From NCBI RefSeq assembly GCF_009914755.1, contig NC_060941.1: a DNA stretch of 64,000 nucleotides. One strand, written 5' to 3'. The notes beneath the pieces were generated by a model. It made no database searches. It had not been told where the DNA came from and was given only the letters and a program-made list of their open reading frames with translations. Shown here piece by piece: positions 5,181 to 59,152 of this stretch. Numbering within the stretch: the stretch's first letter is position 1; every line of letters begins with the position of its first letter. Made by a program: the position numbers and the translations under genes. This DNA comes from the human T2T-CHM13v2.0 reference genome, Homo sapiens.

Positions 5181-6384
5181 TCTTTTTTTATTTTTAAGGA
5201 AATAATGTCTTACAGACAGACTTCAAGAGCCTCCCCGAACCGGCCCCCAGGGCCTAGCTAGCTCTTAAGGCACCTGTGTGAGAATTAGGCACCTACTGGA
5301 AGGACCTTGCCCTGTGGGTACAGGGTGTGGCTGGTTGATGGTGCTTTCTATGAACAATTAAAGGCATCTTTCCTTCTGATGGGGAAGCCTCATACCAGGG
5401 CACGAGTTAGTTGGTGGAGCAAAGGGTGGATTTAGCCCTTGCTTTCCTCCTTGTGCAGTGAGCAACCTGCACACCCATATAGGGCAGTCCTCCACCCCTT
5501 TTCCCTCTTCTTCCTCCCACTGAGGGGCCATTCTATACTGATGCTGTTGTGTATCCCTCACATCTACATGTGTATATTTCCCCCTTTTCTCCCTTCCCTT
5601 TTCAATTCCTTTTCCTTCTTTCTCCTCCTGTTCCCAGCACTCACTGTGACAAGTCTTACACACCAGTCTCTTTGCATGCCTTTGTATGTCTTTGTGTAGC
5701 AGCCTTAGTATGTGTGTACATTATTATTGCTACATGGGATGGGTGTTCTCGTGGCATTCTTTCAGGGGTTGACACATCATAGGTGCTCAAGATGGTGTGA
5801 CTGGGTTGTGTGTCTATGTGTGTCTCTCTGTGCGTCTTGGCTCTCTGGCACTCCCCAGCCATTCCTTCCCCAGAGCTTAGAAGGGAGAGGGAATTAGAAG
5901 GGAATCCCACAGGGCTGAGGGCTTATCTCCTCCAGTCTCCTCTCAGCCTCTTCCTGGTCCATAGCTCTTTCACCATGATACTCAATCTTCCATGGAGACC
6001 CTGAAGAGGGCCCTGCCCTGCCCCATTGGCCTTGAGGTGGGGCCCCCTCTGCTTCCCTCCCCAGGCCTCCTAAGGCCTCCAAGCCAGAGCTGGTAGGAGA
6101 GCGGCAGGGGAGGGGGGAGTGGGAGGAGGAGAGGGAGCCCAAGGAAGCTGGGCAGGGGCTGGCGGCCCCTGGGACCCCTTTCTACAAGGACAGAGGCGGC
6201 ACCAGCTGCTCCACAGAAGAAATATTCCCCAAAGTCAGAGTGGTCGTCTCGTATTTTAAGTGGCCCTTATTTATCACCATCCTCCTGGGCTCCCTATCGC
6301 TGCAAATGATGATAAAAGACAGCGGTGAGGGGGGCGCGGGGGCTGCTCCCGGCTGGCCCTGCCGCACCAGGGGAGGCGCAGGCA

Positions 6385-6745
6385 CACAGCAACACACGGG
6401 CACAGCGACATGCACGATGACATACACACACAGATGCAGACACAGACACACAGTACCATCCATGACAACAGCTACACACACACACACACAGTGACATGCA
6501 CACACAGACTTAGCTGCAACAGTGACATGCCCACAAATGCTAACCACAAACATACATGCTGGGTGACACCCAAAGCTGTGAACATACACATAGCCTGATA
6601 CAGGCGCAGGGACACATTCACTTGCACACACATATACCAATATGCATGTACAGTGATAGACATACACCGGCACACACATGTGACAAACGTGTCACTCACC
6701 AAAACAAGCATGCACTCACACGCTCACCCCAGGCACTCACACCTC
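6385..6745. repeat. CA-rich low-complexity tract
   Basis: Degenerate (CA)n/CATG repeats. Confidence 0.85.
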
Positions 6746-8481: not shown

Positions 8482-8842
8482 GTGGGCACTCCTTTCCAAC
8501 TCTGGTTCCCCTCTGTCTCCTTGGTCCAAGCTGGAAGAGCAGGTTTGGAATATACTTCTCTGTCTAATGAGGGGAAGGGAATGAGACAGGCATTTATTGA
8601 ACACCTACTATATGCCAGGCCCTGGGCTAGGCCTTTTCACCAAATGCTGTCTCACTGGAGCCTCAAAGACCCTGAGTAGTGGCAGCATTCAACCCAGAGG
8701 TCATGCAACTTGTTCAAGGTCACAGAGCTATGATATGATGAAGCTGTGGTTACACCCAGACCCGAGAGCTCCTAAACCACAGTGGCTGAGCGTGGGGCAG
8801 GACCCTGGAGCTTTGGACATTAAGTCAGATGCCGTCAGCAGG

Positions 8843-9185
8843 GTCCTGGGGCAGCTCCTGGTCTGCAGGGGAGAGACACAGCCCTTGAGAGACACAGCCC
8901 TTGACCTGTGGGAGTCCCCAGTCTGTTGGGAGAGACACAAGCCTTGCACTAGGGGAGTTCCCAGTCTGTTGAGGGAGCTCCAACCTCTAACCTGGGAAGC
9001 CCTAGTCTGATGGGAAGTCAGATCCTCTGCCAAGGGAAGCTCAGCAAATGGGGGACAGAGCTCCTGCTTTGGGAGCACCCACTCTGACGGAGGGATATGT
9101 CTTTGCTCTAGAGAGTCTCTGGTCTGATGAAGAAAACGTCACTTCTGTCCTGGAGGAACCCTCAGTCAGATGAGGGAGACACCGA
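8843..9185 (+). repeat. Degenerate ~41-bp tandem array A (~8 units)
   Basis: Recurring GGGAGCTCCCAGTCTGATGGGGAGAGACACAG-like unit; cores near 8861, 8921, 8964, 9005, ~9043, 9082, 9122, 9165. Confidence 0.75.
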
Positions 9186-9684
9186 TCCACACAGGGAAAA
9201 CAGAAATAAGGTGCAAATGAATGACAGGCAGGCAGAGCAAGTGCACAGGGCAGACAGTGAGCTCAGAGCACGAGGGGAGAATCAGCCCTGGCCTGCGTGG
9301 GCCTCAGGGCCAGACTGGGGGTCCCTCCCTGTTCGTTGCCTCTCTCTCCCTTCCTAGATGTGTGGTCTCTGAACTTCCCCCGGGCTGCCCCTTTCCCAGT
9401 CTGCGGAGGGAAACACCCTGGCCAGGGCAGAGGTAGAGACCTTCTCCTCTTGGTGCTGACAGCCCCAGCCGGCTCCCCCTTTTCCACAGAAGCCTCCAGC
9501 GGCCTTGGGACTCTCTTTCCTCCTCTCTGGACAGGTGACAAGTGGGGGTCCCTGGGGGAGAGGAAGGAGAAAGACCAGGAAGGCAGAAGGAGCTGAAGGA
9601 TGAGCATAGGGCCTGATGAAAGGGTGCCAAAGTCACAAGTCACAAGGGCAGACGAGTGTTTACCTTCTACAAAGTAGCACTTTC

Positions 9685-9856
9685 CACACACACAGGTACA
9701 CACACACACACACACACTTGCGCACACACATGCATGCACACACATAGGCGCACGCACACACAGGCACACACACACTCGCGCACACACCCGCACACTGCGC
9801 ACACGCACACACACACGGACACACGCATGCACACACGCACACGCGCGCACACACAC
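9685..9856. repeat. (CA)/(CG) alternating purine-pyrimidine tract
   Basis: About 170 bp of cacacacgcacacgcgcac-type repeats. Confidence 0.93.
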
Positions 9857-9984
9857 GATGCATTCTGCGTACCAGTCATACGGGAGTCACAGGATTGAAA
9901 TACTCTTGTCCTGCTTTCTCGGGGCACATAGCTGGGCAGAGGGACCCAAGTTCAAAGTTGCCTCACGGAGCCTTCTTCCCTCAG

Positions 9985-10860
9985 GGGCGGTCCTAACGAC
10001 CTCAGTCTGCGACAGAAGCGGGCCTTAGAGGCTCTCGGTGAGTCTGGGCCCGGGACTGTGGCCTCCTTACTCCCTGAGTTAAGTCCTTGGGCCAAAAAAA
10101 GAGAAAGAAGGAAGAAGAAGGAAAGGGAGGGGAGGGAAGGGACGCGGGGCGGAGGACGCAGCGGGCGGCCTGCGGAGGCGGCCTGGCTCGGGGTGGGGGC
10201 TCGGCCGGAGTTCCCGCGGCTGCTCGGCGGCGGCCGGCTCGGGAGCAACCTTGAGCGCGGTCGCGGAGACAGTGATTTAGGTGCCGGCACCGGAGCGTGA
10301 AGGTAAATGGCCACATTTCACCGTCGGGAGGTGAGCCGGAGGCGCCCGCCCTGGCCCTTCCCCCAAGGCCCCGGGCCGGTGGGGGCGGGAGTTTTGCTTC
10401 CCCTCTCTGACCCGCTCCGAGGCCCGCCTGGGAGGGCGGCGCCCCCACGGTGCAGGACAGGAGGGCTGCGCCGGGCTGCGGGGTGAGCAAGACCCCTAGA
10501 GCTGCCTTTCCCGACCCCTTCCTATTTGGGGGGCTGTTTCCCTCACTTCCCCGTCGCCCCGGCCTCCTCCCAAAGCTGCTTCCAGAGGGAAGCTGAGAAG
10601 CAAGTGCTTAAAGCCTCTGGCACTTGGGGGCGCCACCTTCTCTCAGGAGAGGGTGGGCGGCGGCACCTCCGGGGTGCTAGTCCACGCGCAGGGAGCTTCC
10701 CCAGGTCACCTCCTCTACTCCTCACCAGGGTCCATTGAGGCGGGGCCTGCCTTATCCCCATGGTGCAGATTAGGAGCCGAGGCCCGGGAGCTCGAGGGAC
10801 CTGCAGAAGGCCACGCGGCTGGAAGGGGTGGAGGAGGCTGGGGACCCAGGCCCCTGAGCC
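9985..10860. promoter_or_regulatory. CpG island 1
   Basis: Very GC-rich, dense CpG, GC boxes (GGGGCGG); boundaries approximate. Confidence 0.88.
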
Positions 10861-12172: not shown

Positions 12173-12276
12173 CCAGAGGAGGGTGTCTGGGGCGGGAGAG
12201 AGGTCATCCTTCATGGCCTGAAGACCAGAGGAGGCTGTCAGGGGCGGGAGAGAGGTCATCCTTCATGACCTGAAGA
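12173..12276 (+). repeat. 52-bp tandem duplication (2 copies)
   Basis: 12173-12224 vs 12225-12276, 3 mismatches. Confidence 0.95.
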
Positions 12277-13999: not shown

Positions 14000-14410
14000 G
14001 ACACAGATACACTCACACAGGCACACACCCACATGCACACACATGCAAATGTGCACCCAGACACACACATGCACCTGCATAAGCATGGGCACACACATGC
14101 AGATGTGCACCCAGACACACACATGCATGCGTAGGCACACACACGTGCACACACATGTAGATGGGCACCCACACACATGTGCGTGCGTAGGCACACACGT
14201 GCACATGCAAATGTGCACCCAGACACACATGCATACATATAGGCACACACACATGCACACATATGTAAATGTGGACCCACACACATGTGCATGCAGAGAC
14301 ACACACATGTACACACACGCGCAAATGTGCACCCAGACACACACATGCACATGCAGAGGCACACACACGTGCAAGTGCACACCTGCACAGACACATACAC
14401 ATATACACAC
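14000..14410. repeat. CA-rich degenerate minisatellite (~55-bp period)
   Basis: ATGTGCACCCAGACACAC-like anchors at 14049, 14103, 14161, 14211, 14269, 14325. Confidence 0.85.
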
Positions 14411-16400: not shown

Positions 16401-16694
16401 TCCTTACCCAACAGGCTGGAAGCTCCCTGGGTCAGGGAGGAGGGTGTGTCTCTCCCATCAGACTAAGATTTGAAAGGCAGAAGCTGAGCCCCTGTGCACA
16501 CCCTCCTCCCAAGACTGGGGATTCCTTGAGGGTGAGTTGATATCTCCTATTTCTCTCATCGTTTGTTCCAAATTGCAAGGCATTTGTTTCTTTGCATGTC
16601 CTGTTAGTTCTATGATAGCAGGGAACCTGCTTTATACATTGTGTCTCCCTAGTGTCTGTCACGGGACTTGTTCTATACAAAGGAGTAAATATTA

Positions 16695-34088: not shown

Positions 34089-35324
34089 AGAAGCCCACCT
34101 ATTCTAACTAGAGTCAAAGGCTGGAGTGCCAACGGTGCCTCAGGACAGGTCCTGCGGAGATGAGCCCCTGAACCTCTGCTTCTCTCAACCCACTTAAATG
34201 AAGCCCCAGTCTTCCCCAGACACCACGTGGAGGCCGAGAAACCCACTGATAGATGGTGGGTGGGGGTGGACATACTGGTGGCCCCAGTTGGCTTCCTGTC
34301 ACACCAGGGCATCCCCTCCCATATGAAGTCACCGTGAGATCTCTCTATCCCAGCTAGGTTAGTTGCTCTTAATTAAACCAATTGTTGGACTTAATACCCA
34401 TCCCATTAACATGTCTCCCAGATCTATTAATTATGACCAGTGGAGGAAGGGCACGGGAGCTTTGGGTGGGGATGCAGGGGTTTGAAAACCAAGCCAATCT
34501 GCCTCACAGAGAAGGGGCAAGTTCATTCCTGGATATGAGGGCAATCTGGCTGCAACATTTGTCACCCCGTTGATCACCAGGATTGATTTGGGTGATCTGG
34601 CTGGCTAGGCGGGTGTCCCCGTCCTCCCTCACTGCTCCATGTGTGTCCCTGCTGAAGCTGCACACTTGGAGAGGATGACCTTCCCTGATAGAGGAGGACT
34701 GTTCTTTGGTCAAGGGTATACCAGGAGCTCGACTCGCCTGCTGGAACCTCCGAACAACCTCTCAGGTTCACTCCTTGTTTCCTCCTGGGAGTCTTGGAAA
34801 CATTCATTACAGCCTCAGAATTCCTGGAAGCCTGCTGTGTCTGCATCCCATGGGGTCTAACTGAGGCCCTCTGGCCACCATGACCCTTGGGACCCCTTTC
34901 CCATTTAGCTTTCTCAGAGCCACTGGGGCAGGGACAGGGGAGGTGGAGGTGACTGTCATTGGTGCAAGGTAGGGGCCAAGAACTCATCCGTGGGGTCAGA
35001 ACGGAGGCTGAGTGGGAATGAGGATTACAGATGGAGAGCTGGAGTTACCCCAGCTCCACCCACACACACCTGTGTTCAGAATGTTCCCTCTGCAGCTCTT
35101 TGGGACCAGGTAGGGCTCCCTAAATCCCTCTGTACTCTGATCAGGCCTTCCTGGATGGTGGGTGGACTTAGAGGCAGATGCTGGACCTACGCAGGGATGC
35201 TCAGACTATTAGTAGGCCCTCCCCTTGTGCCTTCTCCTTCCTCCTTCCCTCCCAACTGGGCCCTCCCCGCTGCCCCCAGTGTCAGGGGCCAGCCAGGGCA
35301 GGAAGGGAACTAGGGTGGGGCCCT

Positions 35325-51636: not shown

Positions 51637-51744
51637 GCTGGGAGAGACTTCGGAAAGCACCCAGTTTAAGATCTTTATTTCAGAGATGAGGCTGGGAGAG
51701 ACTCTGGAAAGCATCCAGTTTAAGGTCTTTATTTCAGAGATGAG
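51637..51744 (+). repeat. 54-bp tandem duplication at the edge of a MIR-like element
   Basis: 51637-51690 vs 51691-51744. Confidence 0.93.
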
Positions 51745-52097
51745 GAGTTGAGGCTCAGAGAGGCCATTGACTTCTCCAAGATCCATAGAGATGGACTGGA
51801 CTCTTGACTCTCAGCCCTGTTTCCTTTCCATTGCACTCCTTCCTTTTTTATGGTAGAATGGACAAGGTCAGATCAGAACCAGTGACTATGAAACATCAGA
51901 ATCCTGGCTCTGCAGCTCCCTGTCTCAGACCCAGGCAGACCCAAGATAGCATTTTTTTCCCCTGAACTTAGGTAAGAGGGATTCTTTGGTCACTCAGCTC
52001 TGTCTGAGATGTCAACATGTGGTTTTCTGACCCCAAGAACCTTCCAGACCACCTCTCTGGCCCCTAATCCCCTAGGCCTTGGCTGACCTATGGTCTC

Positions 52098-53899: not shown

Positions 53900-54430
53900 T
53901 GCATTTAATATAAATGCCCATTAAAAAAAATTCTCCCCTCCCTGTGACTGCATGGGCCAGACCCTCCCACCCCCAGGTCCCTGACGCTCTTAGATTTTCC
54001 TGCTGCCACGTTCCACCCTGAGCCATGTCTTCTAGTATTTTGCTTTCAAATTGTGTCTCCTGCCATTTGTGCCACATTTAAAATGCTAACAGTACAGAAT
54101 GTCATTTACAGAACCGGGGCGTTTGCTCCGGAAAATTAATTTGACTTATTCCTTCTGCCTGTTCCTATCTCCAGGCCAATATTATGCTACTCATTCTACA
54201 AGAGTAATACTTAATGAATAGGACTATTAATAATGTCAAGGTCCGCAGGGGCCTGGCGGCTAACGGATAGGCGTAGACGGAAGGAACCCATCACCTGACT
54301 CCTGGTTTAATGTCCCATGAAAATATCAGGCACTGCAGTGTAATTATGGAGCAGGGAGAAGCGAGTGGATGACGACCCAGAGTTTCTTAAATATTTTTCA
54401 AATTAGTTGATGCTTTTCCTTTTGGGGGAG
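53900..54430. promoter_or_regulatory. Candidate enhancer / conserved non-coding-like block
   Basis: TE-free, TAAT-rich (AATTAATT, TATTAATA, GTAATTAT), retained CpGs. Confidence 0.55.
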
Positions 54431-54504
54431 GAGGATGTTTATCCCCCCACTCTCACTCCATTTTAGTTCTGGTCTGGAAGAGGAGGTGGACCTATTTTCA
54501 TTAA

Positions 54505-54570
54505 ACACACTCATGCATGCACGCGCATGCACACACACACACACACACACACAGTGAGAGAGAGAGAGAG
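54505..54570. repeat. (CA)n(GA)n microsatellite
   Basis: Direct reading. Confidence 0.93.
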
Positions 54571-55332
54571 AACAATATATAACTCAGAGATGGTAATAGC
54601 TACTCTCACCCCAACATGTTGAGATACTGTGTTGGGTATGAGAAGGGGGAAGTAGACAGCATAGGTTTACATTTAGCAAAAGAGAAAAACACAAAGAAGG
54701 AAAAGAAAAAGTGGAATTTAAAAATCTGATTTACAGAGTATCCCAGTAATCCTCCTTTCTTCCATGCACTTCTTCCTTTCCCAGTGCACATAGAATTACC
54801 AAGGTAACAGGGCTTCTGGAGAAAACAAGAGGTCCTTCATTATCTGCAGCCCCAGCCCTCATCATCCCCTTCCCACAGTCCTGAATACCCAAGGAGAGGA
54901 AGAGTGGCCCTTGCTGTACAGCTTCTTCATTGCTTGAAGCCTGATTCCTTTCAAGCCCTGAGATTATGGCCCTGGGTTGGCCCACATGGCTGCTTTTATA
55001 GGAATGGAGCAGCAGGGTTGGGCAGGAACCATGGGAGAGGGAAGAGGGGAGGGATGGGGGAGGCCAGGACTGGGGGCAAAGGAGTTGGAGTGGGAGTCCT
55101 GTATGTCAGTCTCATCTCATGTGCAGAAAGTGGATAAGGATATCTGCCTTGCAGAATGGTGGTAAAGCCATGAGATAATGGGTGTGAAGGGCTGGGGCTG
55201 GGGCTGGCACACAGAGGGGCTGATAATATTAGTCCCTTTTGTCCAGTTCACAGATGGTGCAATCAGGCTCCACCATAGCAGGAACCAGGCATCTCTTTCT
55301 GGTGCAGAGTTGAACAAAGGATACTTGCCTCT

Positions 55333-56050
55333 CGCCCTGGGTGATGTGTGGGAGCTTCCAGTGTAGTGGGGGAACCTCTGCTCTTGAGGGGCCCTCAGAC
55401 TCCCATGAAGGAGTCATGTTCCTACCTGAGGTTCCCAGTCTTATGGAAGAGACTCAGTTTCTGATCTGAGAGGGGCTTCTGGTCTGGTGCTGGAACCCCT
55501 GTCCTTGGAGGGTTCCCATTCTTATGGAGTAACCACAGTGCCTTCCACCAGGGAGGTCTGCAGTCTTATGAGAGTTCCAACCCCCTGGTCTGAGAAGCAT
55601 TTTAGTTTTATGGGAGAAATCCAGCTTCCAATCAGGGTGGGGGCCTTCTGATCTGGTTGGGGAAACTGGGCCCTTACCCTGCAGAAACTCCAGTCTGATA
55701 GAGGAGACACAGCCTCTGTGTTCTGGAAGGCCTCCCAGTTCGATGGTAGAGAAAAATTCTTGCTCTGTGGGAGCCTAAATATGGAGAGGGATGTATAACA
55801 CTTGGCATAGTAAAATCCCAGTCTAATGGGGGAGACAGAGTCTGTCTTTCAAGAGATTTCAGTCTGTTGAGAGAACAGGGTGGCCTAAAGAAGGCCCATC
55901 TGATGGAAGAAAACAGAGCCTGCCCGTCAGGGAGCTCCCAGACCACTGGGGAAGAGAGACCCCTTGGCCTCAGGGGATGCCAGTGTGATCGGGGAGGGCT
56001 TCTTTGCAGTGGCAGATACCCTGGTCTTATGGTCTTATTGGGAAGACATG
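55333..56050 (+). repeat. Degenerate ~42-bp tandem array B (~17 units)
   Basis: CCCAGTCT(G/T)ATGG-like cores at about 55361, 55398, 55438, 55482, 55519, 55563, 55605, 55651, 55693, 55738, 55779, 55821, 55862, 55898, 55941, 55983, 56024. Confidence 0.78.
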
Positions 56051-56199
56051 GTACCCAAGGTGGGGCAGCTTCCACCCTTTACAGGGATGGCAGGGCGAGT
56101 AAAGGCAAGCAGACTGCAGAAACCCCGAAAGAGGGGAGGCACAAACCGTTCAGCTCAGCTGGGTAGAAATCGGCTCAAGCCCATCAGAGTGACAGATAC

Positions 56200-56800
56200 C
56201 CGGGGAGGCTGGGCGTGCCAAGCTGGACCGGTCCGGCCAGGCTGGAAGCCCAGCTGCCTGCTTTTTCTCAGTGCCTGGAGACCACCCGCCTTTTCAGCAC
56301 CACGGTCAGCGGCCTTTTCGCAGGCGCGCGCCCCAGCCCCGCCCCGGGTTGGGCTGGCATCCAGCCTCCGGGCCCTTCTGCGTGTCCCTCGGCCCACCGG
56401 CATCCCGGGCTGGAGGTGTGGGTGGGGCAGGCGACCGGGGTATGAGAGGCGGTGGGGTGCCTCCTCCGCGCGTCTCTGCGAGTATCTGTCTCCCCCATGC
56501 GTCCGCTGCTCCTCATAGAGGCGTCGGGAGAGTGTGTTCGCGACTTTCTCGCACAGCGGCTGCGCCCGCGCCTGACCCTGCCAAGAGAGGGGACACTTCC
56601 TCCACCTCATCCCCTACTCCAGGGTCAGGAAGGGGGTCAAGGCTTCCTCTTGGGGTCAGGTCAGCGAGAGCAGGTCAGATGTCTCTGAAGGCATGGGGAG
56701 GGGGGGGTGTGTGTGCCTGTGCACGCGCCGCGGGTGCGTTTGGGGATGTCGCAGGGAAGAGATCATCTTACTACCATGTCTTCTTGGGGCACTGCAGTAC
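56200..56800. promoter_or_regulatory. CpG island 2
   Basis: GC-rich with dense CpG (GGCGCGCG, CCGCGCG); boundaries approximate. Confidence 0.85.
56293..56313 (+). promoter_or_regulatory. REST/NRSF RE1 (NRSE) site
   Basis: TTCAGCACCACGGTCAGCGGC vs consensus TTCAGCACCACGGACAGCGCC, 19/21. Confidence 0.78.
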
Positions 56801-57209
56801 AGAATGATCAGGAGAGGAAATCTTCCTTCTGGCTCTGGATACCCTGCTCACCGCCTGGGTGAGTCAGGCCTGGGTCTGTAGCTGATCTTGCGTTCCCTTC
56901 CCCAATCCTGAACTGTTTGTGTGACAGTCTGTGCAGGGACATCTGGCTTCTGCAGGGAACCCTGAGGGGCCCATCCCATGCCAGCTGAGGTGGGGAGATC
57001 AGCGGCCCTACAGACATTCTGCCCAGCCCTTCCTCCTTTCTCTCCATCACCTGGTTTGGGCCTCTTAACACCTGAACCCTAACAGATCCAGGTGGTCCAA
57101 CCAGACCCTGCTCATTCCACTCTTTGTACCCCCATCTCCCAGAAGCAAGGTAGAGGGGTGGAATGGCCTAGACACAGAGAGACATCCCATCTCTACCCCC
57201 ACCTCCATC

Positions 57210-57985
57210 CTCATAAAAGGCAAATATGGAATCAGCAAAAAGAAAAAAAGGCCAAATAAAAAGTCATAAAGTCATCCAATTAATAATTATTCTGAGGGAC
57301 TCATCAGAATTCACAGCTGGGCCAAGAAAATGGTGGAAGGAGGGGGTCAGAGAGGACAAACGTGGGGGACGCCTTCTTTTCCCTCACCCTCAGGTGAGAG
57401 TGAAGGCGCCTCCTGCCAAGTTCTCGTTTTCTCATTCGCTTCTTTTTTTTTTTTTTTATGGGGCATCCTGAGTGTAAAAAATATGACTTGCCTTTATGGT
57501 GCTCCAACAGGAATGAAGCTATAAAATTATGAACAGTTTTTATGGCGGCTATTCGGGGGATGCTTTTATATTGATGGTATACAGCCTGAATCTGTCTTTT
57601 TTGCATCCCACCCCCCTTCCCTGGGCAGGGAGGGGAAGTCTGTGTAACTATTTTTCATGCATTTAATATATTAATTATCTGGTAAATGCTCCCCAGGCTG
57701 TGCTCGGGACATTGGAGAGTGACAGGTTCTCAGCGAGCCTCCGAAGGCAGCGCATCAGCCTGCAGTGTATTATGTCGGCGAGGTCAGGGTGGGGTTAATG
57801 TAACTTTTTATTTGCTGATTTTTCATAGGCGGGAGCAAAGCCGGGATGGAGGGAGGGAGAGAGAAGGAGGGAGAGAGATAGGAGTGGGGGGAGGAGAAGG
57901 TGCCACAAGAGCAGAGATAATGGTGAGGCAGATCTCTCCACCCCCAATTCACCTCTGTCAATGCCAGGAGGTTTGATTAAGTAGG
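57210..57985. promoter_or_regulatory. Candidate CDX/posterior-HOX enhancer block
   Basis: GTCATAAA 57263; TTTATGG at 57455, 57493, 57539; TGACAG near 57720; TE-free. Confidence 0.55.
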
Positions 57986-59152
57986 AAAGGAGCAGTGGCC
58001 TCTCCTACTGGCTCTGGCACCCAAAGCCACACACTCCTGGTGACACTCTTGGGCATGAGACTTTCCCTTGCTGCATATTGCGCCCTTGAATGCAGGCACA
58101 GTGTCACCTTCCAACTCCTTCTCACTTGCTGAAACTGAAACCCCGGCTCTCGGGTCTGGAAGAAAAACTATAAGATTACCGCGGGAGTGTCTGACCAGCT
58201 TCCCTTTGTATACTCCCAGATAGGTGCTTACACACAGCCACGTGGACTTGTGCACACACAAGCTGGCTTTGTCACTCGAGTTCACATTGTCCCTCCTGCA
58301 CGACATGTCAGATTCTGGTTCCTCGCCCATTCACAAAGCGCAGCTTCTGGCGATTAAACAAGGGAAGCGATGAACAGGTCTCACTGGCCACAGTTTCTCT
58401 TCTCTGTCAATGATACCAAGAGCACTCATGCCTAGAGCCGAGACCCTGTCCACCTTGCAAGAAAGGAAATCTGTCAGCCAACCCATCTCTGTCTGGAAAG
58501 CCTGGGGAGGGGGCTGTTCAGAGGTCCTGATGCCCAGGTCACCACTGGGCCTACGTGTGTGCTCCAAGTCTTGAGAGAATAAAGGCTACTTCTTAGATCA
58601 GACTGGGACCTCTCTGTTCCTGGCCTCTTGCCCCCGCCCTGCCATCTGCCGGCCCCAAGAGGGCAGCACAGGTGGGTCTTTTCTGCTTTGACTGGTTAGT
58701 GATCGTGAATACTTGAGTCCTGGCTCCCTAACGCTTTGAAGCCTTTATTTTGGTTTTTGTATAGAGTTTTTTTTCTTTACTGTAAAAATGTTTAATCATT
58801 CAGAAAAGTAGAGATATTGTTAGCATTATTATTTTAGGATTGGGGTAGACACTTTTGTGTGTTTAGCCAGGAAAATGGCAGCTCCTGCTGAACCAGGAGC
58901 ACAGACCCCTGGGTTCAGGGCCTCAGCTCTGCCTAGACGTACTGTGTGATGCCTCTTTGTTCTTCACCAAAGAAGACAAAGTAGGGGCAGGATACTCCTG
59001 AGGTGCTGCAGACCCACCTACCTTTGCTCACTGAGGACTCAGGAGTGTGCGCCCACGTGCACATGTCCTATCCCCCTCCAACGAGAGAAGTTAGGAGCTT
59101 GAGTTCTAGAAACAGGGTCTTTGCTTTGCCACTTCCTGCTCTGTGACCTTGA

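What the first reader, a model, noticed from the sequence alone, without database searches (positions are those of the whole stretch)
55333..56050. Cryptic ~42-bp-period array directly upstream of CpG island 2
Seen: about 17 diverged units, consensus roughly CCCTGCCCT-GGGGAGCTCCCAGTCTGATGGGGAGAGACACAG. Core spacings are 36-46 bp (mean ~41-42) and the array ends ~150 bp before the island. Units are too diverged for a recent VNTR, yet the period persists. Established: the unit resembles a short antisense L2 3' segment (ccctgccctc..ggagct..cagtctagtgggg.gagacagac); GTCT/AGAC is the SMAD-binding element; 42 bp is four helical turns. Inference: an ancient L2-seeded satellite kept as a phased protein-binding platform, nucleosome-positioning element or methylation boundary at a CpG-island shore. 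This is my best candidate for an undescribed system.
Basis: partly seen in the sequence, partly recalled or inferred. Interest (0 to 1): 0.8.

Follow-up and report, generated by a model that had tools for sequence, protein, structure and literature searches.

The report
Decayed L2-derived 42-bp minisatellite
The periodic stretch is real, but it looks like the worn-down remnant of an ancient tandem repeat copied from a piece of the LINE-2 transposon, one of many such arrays in the human genome, with no evidence here for a special role at the neighbouring CpG island.

Summary
Window 55350-56032 (+) is a head-to-tail array of about 17 units, about 41 bp each. Tandem Repeats Finder misses it, but it scores far above shuffled sequence. 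A profile built only from arrays elsewhere in the genome recovers 9 of its units.

The unit matches about 41 nt of the antisense 3' end of LINE-2, the segment that gives miR-151a/miR-28.

The array is not unique:
- Two more arrays of the same unit lie in this window (8853-9181 +, 16407-16536 -).
- Clear arrays lie at 10 or more independent loci elsewhere, including about 30 near-identical units on chr19.

Even decay of a perfect array (about 36% substitutions, 6% indel sites) reproduces the observed signal, so the surviving period needs no selection.

Evidence bearing on a role at the island:
- The array is CpG-poor (observed/expected 0.06).
- It has no palindromic SMAD site and no consistent 10-bp phasing.
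- Family arrays lie on either side of CpG islands at varied distances in GC-rich DNA.

It is not MSR1.

One point is unexplained: the arrays share derived bases but mostly lack L2 flanks (2 of 17, against 11 of 15 single L2 copies). Interest is low to moderate.

The parts
55350..56032 (+). Array B, the finding: about 17 decayed units of about 41 bp, derived from the L2 3' end
   Evidence: Wraparound alignment. Score against shuffles. Autocorrelation. 16 consecutive covariance-model hits. 9 hits from a profile built on outside loci.
55815..55878 (+). The two best-preserved adjacent units of array B
   Evidence: Outside-loci profile E-values 1.1e-05 and 1.3e-04. This is the one exact core dimer that the genome pattern screen hit, at C17:37689819.
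56033..56140 (.). Non-repetitive spacer between the array and the CpG island
   Evidence: Sequence read. For 56033-56199, CpG observed/expected is 0.33.
56141..56680 (.). CpG island 2, single-copy in the genome
   Evidence: Island scan. For 56200-56620, GC is 0.70 and CpG observed/expected is 0.71. BLAST of 56100-57100 against the own genome finds only itself.
8853..9181 (+). Array A: a second array of the same unit, about 7-8 units, 0.44 kb upstream of CpG island 1; one outlying unit lies at 9394-9415
   Evidence: 8 hits with the model trained on array B, the best at 19.8 bits. 7 hits with the outside-loci profile. TRF finds period 43, 2.0 copies, at 8887-8971. Sequence read.
16407..16536 (-). 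Array C: three units of the same family on the opposite strand
   Evidence: best E 1e-04. Sequence read.
9621..10520 (.). CpG island 1, at the annotated lncRNA LOC105371750 start (9826)
   Evidence: Island scan, composition, and the hub annotation.

Best explanation
The stretch is a relic minisatellite. A segment of about 41 nt from the antisense 3' untranslated end of LINE-2 was amplified head to tail. This is the same segment that gives the L2-derived microRNAs miR-151a and miR-28. It is bounded in L2 by a short ACA(G) direct repeat 41 nt apart. I infer that amplification went by slippage or unequal exchange. The array has since decayed without homogenisation for roughly as long as L2 copies themselves have.

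It belongs to a dispersed family of such arrays. The family has three members in this 64-kb window and at least ten clear independent loci elsewhere. The arrays share derived bases relative to ordinary L2 copies, so they trace to one variant unit and not to random L2 copies.

The surviving period is what even-handed mutation leaves behind. Its position about 110-170 bp from a CpG island reflects the GC-rich, island-dense DNA in which the family sits. The most likely 'mechanism' is therefore origin and neutral decay, with no dedicated function.

Shown: the periodicity, the family, the L2 homology, the fit to uniform decay, and the CpG depletion.
Inferred: the slippage mechanism, the age, and the absence of function.
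Unresolved: how bare arrays reached many loci.
For: Periodicity:
- Wrap score 206-367 against shuffles 112 +/- 15.5, maximum 146.
- Autocorrelation z 3.7-4.8 at lags 19, 42, 44 and 83.

L2 homology:
- A 17-mer of miR-151a-5p occurs 69 times in the genome against 0 for the reversed control. [quoted passage not shown]
- 20 such copies share extended homology.
- Unit consensuses of 13 of 21 array consensuses (winB plus 20 fetched loci, segmental duplicates included) align end to end to positions 172-215 of that consensus. All 13 alignments begin in the ACA(G) word at 172-175 and end at 215, in the second ACA word.

Family:
- Core dimer screens give 129 hits against 32 control, and 54 against 9.
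- Arrays lie at 20 of 20 fetched loci, 10 of them clear and independent after removing segmental duplicates and borderline cases.
- A profile from those loci finds arrays A, B and C in the window.

Shared derived states:
- 10 of 13 array consensuses have CC before the CAG of the core, and all 13 have GATGG.
- Among exact-match L2-type words, TAGTGG outnumbers GATGG 148 to 43, and 13 of the 43 lie in one array. CC occurs in 2 of the 100 listed TAGTGG rows.

Neutral decay:
- Simulated arrays with 36% substitutions and 6% indel sites give score 364 and identity 0.669. Observed values are 342 and 0.674.
- Single L2 copies are about 75% identical to their consensus (12 of 15 copies with at least 40 aligned nt).
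- There is no higher-order repeat: mean identity is 0.52-0.60 at lags 1-8.
- The array holds 3 CpGs in 683 nt (observed/expected 0.06), so it lies outside the island's protected zone.
Against: - Column conservation is more uneven than uniform decay predicts. Variance is 0.026 against 0.013 +/- 0.003, and 0 of 60 simulations reach it in each of three settings. The core columns match at 76% and the rest at 62%. This could reflect constraint on the core. It could equally reflect shared variants from stepwise duplication: units 1, 4 and 8 are 72-76% alike against a mean of 57.5%.
- The upstream flank of this array shows no L2 similarity (score 18 against shuffle mean 18.8).
- Only 2 of 17 independent arrays have an L2 tail next to them, against 11 of 15 single L2 copies with the same model (Fisher p 0.0008). 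Simple in-place growth inside an intact L2 copy is therefore not the general story, and the means of dispersal is unknown.
- In this window two of three arrays lie within 0.5 kb upstream of an island. No GC-matched genome-wide test was possible.
- No cross-species, methylation, nucleosome or binding data could be consulted.
- No Dfam or RepeatMasker library was available, so 'L2' rests on a consensus derived here plus the paper.
Confidence: 0.75

Rival explanations
1. The array is maintained as a functional element at the CpG-island shore. It would be a phased binding platform for SMADs, KRAB zinc fingers or another factor, a nucleosome-positioning element, or a methylation boundary.
For: - It ends about 110-170 bp before an island where CpG observed/expected jumps from 0.06 to 0.71.
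- Array A also lies 0.44 kb upstream of an island.
- Core columns are better kept than the rest, beyond the uniform-decay simulations.
- GTCT/AGAC occurs 17 times against 7.4 +/- 2.5 in shuffles.
- There are precedents. MSR1 minisatellite copy number changes promoter output (PMC4725990, passages read). Helitron minisatellites act as chromatin barriers in C. elegans (bioRxiv 10.64898/2026.08.08.743475, passages read).
Against: - Uniform decay reproduces the overall signal.
- Unit lengths drift from 35 to 45 bp, so phase is not kept.
- The palindromic SMAD element is absent, and GTCT is no more enriched than neighbouring words of the repeated core.
- There is no consistent 10-bp AT-dinucleotide phasing.
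- Elsewhere the family sits on either side of islands at 0.9-3.3 kb, or with no island within 4 kb. Of the 10 independent arrays with an island in reach, 6 lie within 1.5 kb, against 3.75 expected (binomial p 0.13).
- The family's loci have 46-59% GC, where islands are common.
- The C. elegans preprint reports no such chromatin footprint for LINE-2.
Confidence: 0.07
2. The array grew in place from an L2 copy that had inserted at this spot. On this reading the other arrays are independent expansions of the same slippage-prone L2 segment, and not relatives of this one.
For: - The unit boundaries fall on an ACA(G) direct repeat 41 nt apart in the L2 consensus derived here.
- The first unit of array B keeps the L2-type TAGTGG word and matches L2 at 20 of 24 positions (8 of 300 shuffles reach that score).
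- Two arrays (L040, L038) have the L2 tail directly upstream and in register.
- An unrelated-looking 42-bp array with the L2-type core exists at chr6:10.07 Mb (L018, 11.7 copies).
- Ahmed and Liang describe in-place initiation between short direct repeats (PMC3389668, section 3 read).
Against: - The 120 nt upstream of array B are not L2-like.
- 15 of 17 independent arrays lack the tail, which the same model finds in 11 of 15 single copies.
- The arrays share two derived states that are rare in single L2 copies.
- In most old arrays, units within one array are no more alike than units of different arrays: within array B 56%, and B against the other arrays 56-63%.
Confidence: 0.15
3. There is no real repeat. 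The apparent period is a chance pattern in GC-rich sequence.
For: TRF finds nothing. The permissive alignment gives 61% matches even in shuffled sequence.
Against: Scores lie far above all 40 shuffles. Autocorrelation exceeds the shuffle maximum at lag 19 and nearly reaches it at lag 44. An independent profile from other loci hits 9 co-oriented units here.
Confidence: 0.01

Closest known systems
TE-derived minisatellites and multilocus tandem repeats (Ahmed and Liang 2012, PMC3389668; abstract and section 3 read)
   Same: A tandem array whose unit is a piece of a transposable element. The same unit occurs at several loci. The proposed initiation is between short flanking direct repeats, followed by gradual local expansion.
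   Different: That catalogue required at least 95% identity among units, and its authors say old diverged arrays are missed. This array has about 57% pairwise identity and would not be in it. The sections I read discuss Alu, L1, LTR12, ERV and SVA sources and do not mention L2. I did not open the supplementary tables.
MSR1 minisatellite family (Rose et al. 2016, PMC4725990; passages read)
   Same: A dispersed minisatellite family in GC-rich, gene-dense DNA, often near promoters. No mobile-element flanks are known, and the means of spread is unexplained.
   Different: The MSR1 unit is 36-38 bp. The PRPF31 promoter cluster fetched here has a 36-37-bp period and no significant similarity to this family's units: wrap scores are at or below shuffles in 8 of 10 comparisons, and unit-to-unit scores are mostly within the shuffle range. 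MSR1 arrays are young enough to vary in copy number, whereas array B is heavily decayed.
L2 3'-end segment that gives miR-151a, miR-28 and miR-708 (Petri et al. 2019, PMC6433296; abstract, tables and passages read)
   Same: The array unit covers the same stretch of the L2 3' end, in the antisense sense of miR-151a-5p.
   Different: The microRNA loci are hairpins made from two opposed L2 copies. Here the segment is repeated head to tail on one strand. An Rfam scan of 54500-57500 at E <= 10 lists no L2-type microRNA family.
Helitron minisatellite chromatin barriers (PATCs) in C. elegans (bioRxiv 10.64898/2026.08.08.743475; passages read)
   Same: A transposon-derived minisatellite proposed to act through the physical properties of repeated monomers.
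   Different: Those elements depend on 10-bp periodic A/T tracts. Array B shows no consistent 10-bp AT-dinucleotide periodicity.

Membership tests
Minisatellite (tandem repeat, unit 10-100 bp) | Head-to-tail copies with a common period, above chance | tested here: met
   17 consecutive co-oriented rows of 41.1 +/- 2.7 bp. Score 342 against shuffles 112 +/- 15.5. Autocorrelation.
TE-derived minisatellite | Unit similar to a transposable-element consensus | tested here: met
   Array B's consensus matches 32 of 44 positions at 172-215 of a consensus of 20 L2 3'-end copies. Score 36 against a shuffle maximum of 26. The label L2 comes from PMC6433296. No Dfam library was available.
TE-derived minisatellite (Ahmed and Liang catalogue) | At least 95% identity among units | tested here: not met
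   Mean pairwise unit identity is 57.5%.
LINE-2 element copy | Colinear match to L2 beyond the repeated segment (3' tail upstream in this orientation) | tested here: not met
   The upstream 120 nt score 18 against a shuffle mean of 18.8. The L2 profile gives no hit on either flank. The same profile finds the tail in 11 of 15 single copies.
MSR1 minisatellite | Unit of 36-38 bp | tested here: not met
   The period here is 41-42 bp. The bona fide PRPF31 MSR1 cluster has a 36-37-bp period.
MSR1 minisatellite | Sequence similarity to bona fide MSR1 units | tested here: not met
   Wrap score against array B's consensus is 31, with shuffles at 40 +/- 10. Unit-to-unit score is 24, reached by 16 of 300 shuffles.
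SMAD-binding platform | Palindromic GTCTAGAC elements, or GTCT/AGAC enrichment beyond the repeated core | tested here: not met
   0 palindromes. GTCT z is 3.3, lower than CAGT (5.0), TCTG (4.9) and TATG (4.6) from the same core. Binding itself is not testable here.
Helically phased or nucleosome-positioning repeat | 10-11-bp periodicity of AT dinucleotides sustained over multiples | tested here: not met
   z is 3.0 at lag 11 and 2.4 at lag 12, but -0.6 to 0.3 at lags 20-22, 31-32 and 41-44.
CpG-island shore or boundary element | Consistent proximity and orientation to islands across family members | tested here: inconclusive
   6 of 17 independent arrays have an island within 1.5 kb, on either side. 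Controls give 1 of 22 but are not GC-matched (39% against 46-59% GC). The within-locus test gives p 0.13.
VNTR (polymorphic minisatellite) | Copy-number variation among individuals | not testable with these tools
   Only one assembly is available.

The most novel reading that the evidence does not exclude
The arrays form an unnamed, single-origin family of L2-derived 41-42-bp minisatellites that spread through GC-rich human DNA as bare arrays. They carry no L2 tail and no shared flanks, and they often sit in local clusters in both orientations. This would call for a non-transposon route such as reinsertion of circular or rolling-circle copies, or a very short-ended carrier element. On this reading the better-kept core could mark a sequence that promotes amplification or binding.
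Probability: 0.2. Interest if true: 0.5.

Novelty: new member of a known kind. Interest (0 to 1): 0.25.

Why it matters
This is mostly a cautionary result. A persistent period in diverged DNA next to a CpG island looks designed. Here it is explained by an old transposon-derived tandem repeat decaying evenly, and the '42 bp = four helical turns' and 'SMAD element' readings come from the L2 sequence it was copied from.

Two points have modest wider value:
- Standard tools miss such arrays. TRF finds nothing here, and no masked stretch of 219 nt or more overlaps the array in the hub's list. Old TE-derived minisatellites are therefore probably under-annotated.
- The family-level puzzle deserves a proper genome-wide census. 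The arrays share derived bases, have few L2 flanks, and cluster locally (three arrays in 64 kb; opposed arrays at the chr19 locus).

The chr19:47.53 Mb member, with about 30 near-identical units, is a likely polymorphic VNTR.

Tried and rejected
- Tandem Repeats Finder at minimum score 30 on 54000-58000 found no period of about 42 bp.
- BLAST of the 718 nt against the own genome found only itself.
- An Rfam scan of 54500-57500 at E <= 10 gave only weak, unrelated hits.
- My by-eye impression that the flank upstream of array B is L2-like was tested and rejected.
- The array boundaries from the permissive alignment over-extend into Alu and other sequence. I recomputed them strictly and repeated the flank tests.
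- The search for shared flanks among loci found only Alu elements and segmental duplicates.
- Higher-order repeat structure: none.
- Fixed start or end phase of arrays: none.
- MSR1 membership: rejected.
- Homology between the two array-plus-island modules in the window: only the arrays align. The flanks and islands do not.
- A paper search for the core word returned only unrelated primer matches.
- Searches for L2-derived minisatellites in print found general work on TE-derived tandem repeats. Nothing in the listings and passages I read names this family.

Full report
**What is there.** Reading 55000-56700 shows a recurring word of the form CCAGTCT..ATGG..GA about every 40 bp. Tandem Repeats Finder at its most lenient setting reports no period of about 42 bp.

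I seeded a wraparound alignment with a slice of the window and iterated it to its own consensus. It gives one continuous alignment from 55350 to 56032. It has 17 rows, and 16 of them cover at least 30 of the 42 columns. Unit length is 41.1 +/- 2.7 bp.

- With 12 different seeds the score is 206-367. Forty dinucleotide shuffles reach 112 +/- 15.5, maximum 146.
- Base autocorrelation peaks at lags 19, 42, 44, 61 and 83, with z from 3.5 to 4.8. The 95th percentile of the per-shuffle maximum is 3.55.
- The lag-19 peak comes from an internal imperfect repeat of the word AGTC inside each unit. L2 itself carries this repeat (ACAGTC twice, 24 nt apart).

**A caveat on the numbers.** The permissive alignment inflates identity. 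In shuffled sequence it already finds 25.6 +/- 3.4 matches per 42 columns. The 71% identity to the array's own consensus therefore overstates preservation. Mean pairwise identity between units is 57.5%.

For an independent check I built a profile from 66 units at 10 loci outside the window. It finds 9 co-oriented units in array B at E <= 1, and 6 at E <= 0.1. The stretch 55540-55680 is the most eroded.

**It is not alone.**

- A sequence-only covariance model of 15 units, run over the whole window without filters, gave its single best hit outside the finding, at 8900-8938.
- This revealed a second array at 8853-9181 on the same strand and a three-unit array at 16407-16536 on the opposite strand.
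- Genome pattern screens for two adjacent cores gave 129 hits against 32 for the reversed control, and 54 against 9.
- All 20 loci I fetched hold arrays of 40-43-bp period.
- Segmental duplicates fall into three groups: chr6 41.03/41.08 Mb; chr16 pericentromeric copies with chr17 39.33 Mb; and three chr17 copies.
- After removing these duplicates and the borderline cases, 10 loci are clear and independent.
- The largest is at chr19:47.53 Mb. TRF finds 27.5 copies at 87% match, the profile gives 31 hits, and an opposed array lies 1 kb away.

[quoted passage not shown] Its Table 1 marks the 5p arm as antisense to an L2c copy (abstract, tables and passages read).

- A 17-mer of that microRNA occurs 69 times in the genome and 0 times for the control.
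- Twenty such copies share homology well beyond the 17-mer.
- Unit consensuses from 13 of 21 array consensuses (winB plus 20 fetched loci, segmental duplicates included) align over their full length to positions 172-215 of the consensus of those copies. Identity is 31-35 of 41-44, and scores are 32-50 against shuffle maxima of 24-30.
- All 13 alignments begin in the ACA(G) word at 172-175 and end at 215, in the second ACA word; the two words are 41 nt apart in L2.

The period is most simply the spacing of that short direct repeat. This is the kind of flanking repeat invoked for minisatellite initiation (PMC3389668, section 3.4). The naming as L2 rests on the paper and on a consensus derived here, because no Dfam library was available.

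**Age and decay.**

- I simulated a perfect array of the same size, mutated evenly with 36% substitutions and 6% indel sites, and re-analysed it the same way. It gives score 364 and identity 0.669. The observed values are 342 and 0.674.
- This corresponds to roughly 0.43-0.49 substitutions per site after correction.
- Ordinary single L2 copies are about 75% identical to their consensus in local alignments (12 of 15 copies with at least 40 aligned nt).
- The units are thus at least as worn as L2 itself, which the paper's abstract dates to 100-300 million years ago.
- There is no higher-order repeat.

The period persists because indels are few relative to substitutions. No selection need be invoked to explain it.

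**Evidence that does not fit plain uniform decay.** Conservation differs between columns more than in any simulation. Variance is 0.026 against 0.013 +/- 0.003, and 0 of 60 simulations reach it in each of three settings. The core columns match at 76% and the rest at 62%. Some units share variants: units 1, 4 and 8 are 72-76% alike. Stepwise duplication can account for part of this. Constraint on the core is not excluded.

**The CpG-island link.**

- Array B has 3 CpGs in 683 nt (observed/expected 0.06). The island at 56200-56620 has observed/expected 0.71.
- The island is single-copy in the genome. The two array-plus-island modules in the window share nothing beyond the arrays.
- Across 17 independent arrays, 6 have an island within 1.5 kb, on either side. 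22 unrelated control loci gave 1, but they average 39% GC against 46-59% for the array loci, so the comparison is not fair.
- Among the 10 arrays with an island within 4 kb, 6 lie within 1.5 kb where 3.75 would be expected (p 0.13, with distances taken by hand).

I read this as a family living in island-rich DNA, not as a family tied to island edges. A proper genome-wide test is still needed.

**The other functional cues.**

- GTCT plus AGAC occurs 17 times against 7.4 +/- 2.5 in shuffles. Three other words of the repeated core are more enriched, and the palindromic element is absent.
- AT-dinucleotide autocorrelation has z 3.0 at lag 11 but about 0 at lags 21, 32 and 42.
- Unit lengths of 35-45 bp mean the helical phase is not kept.

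**Origin: what stays open.**

- The arrays share two states that are uncommon in single L2 copies. GATGG appears in all 13 array consensuses, and CC precedes the core CAG in 10 of 13.
- Exact-match L2-type words are TAGTGG 148 times against GATGG 43 times. Of those 43, 13 are in one array and 15 are CA/TA-type words at single places, 11 of which showed an L2 tail when fetched. CC occurs in 2 of the 100 listed TAGTGG rows.
- This points to one founding variant.
- Yet only 2 of 17 independent arrays have the L2 tail beside them, while the same profile finds it in 11 of 15 single copies (p 0.0008).
- Array B's upstream flank is not L2-like.
- No flanks are shared between loci apart from Alu elements, and the arrays start and end at no fixed phase.
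- In the older arrays, units are no more alike within an array than between arrays.
- Arrays also cluster locally, sometimes in both orientations (this window, and chr19).

I cannot say how bare arrays reached so many places. This is the one interesting loose end.

**Comparison with known families.**

- The general kind is the TE-derived, multilocus minisatellite (PMC3389668). That catalogue required at least 95% unit identity and would miss arrays like this one.
- MSR1 is the nearest named dispersed minisatellite family. I located the PRPF31 promoter cluster with a published primer. It has a 36-37-bp period and no significant similarity to these units, so this is not MSR1.
- Five paper searches found no description of an L2-derived 42-bp family in the listings and passages I read. 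Subscription papers, supplements and the Dfam and Repbase libraries were not searched.

**Verdict.** This is a real, ancient, L2-derived minisatellite relic and one member of a dispersed family. The functional reading is unsupported. Interest is low to moderate, mainly for the family's unexplained spread.

Noticed in passing
window 34531-34843 (+): Full-length match to 7SK RNA (Rfam RF00100, 171.8 bits, model positions 1-331), in a gene desert. It is presumably one of the many 7SK pseudogenes.
   Followed up: no
L049 = G000:C19:47529773-47538663: The largest family member. About 30 near-identical 42-bp units (TRF 27.5 copies, 87% match), flanked by eroded units, with a 12-hit array in the opposite orientation about 1 kb away. 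It is likely a polymorphic VNTR.
   Followed up: partly
L018 = G000:C6:10069611-10072662, positions 1251-1740: A separate 42-bp tandem repeat (11.7 copies, 88% match) whose unit contains the L2-type core word with TAGTGG. It may be an independent L2-derived array.
   Followed up: no
window 9660-9860: A long CA/CG-rich run (CACACA interspersed with GCGCAC) lies directly at the annotated start of lncRNA LOC105371750 (9826), inside the RefSeq 'enhancer' 9798-10334.
   Followed up: no
window 14024-14373; 12173-12276; 51637-51745: Other tandem repeats found by TRF. The first is a 54-58-bp CA-rich repeat of about 6 copies. The other two are exact-looking two-copy duplications of 52 and 54 bp.
   Followed up: no
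window 8587-8633 (+), just upstream of array A: Match to positions 99-145 of the empirical L2 3'-end profile (E 8e-04). From recall, the surrounding about 200 bp look like an antisense MIR, which shares this tail with L2. It lies 200 bp from array A and is not in register with it.
   Followed up: partly
L002 = G000:C1:17670915-17673964, positions 1379-1506: A locus I had counted among the 'unrelated controls' for the CpG-island comparison holds four family units. The control set therefore contained one family member, and it has no island.
   Followed up: partly
window 6001-6718: This segment scored 247 in the wraparound control run, well above other control segments. TRF finds no array there. 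It is GC-rich (0.60-0.70 at 5900-6300). I did not find the cause.
   Followed up: partly
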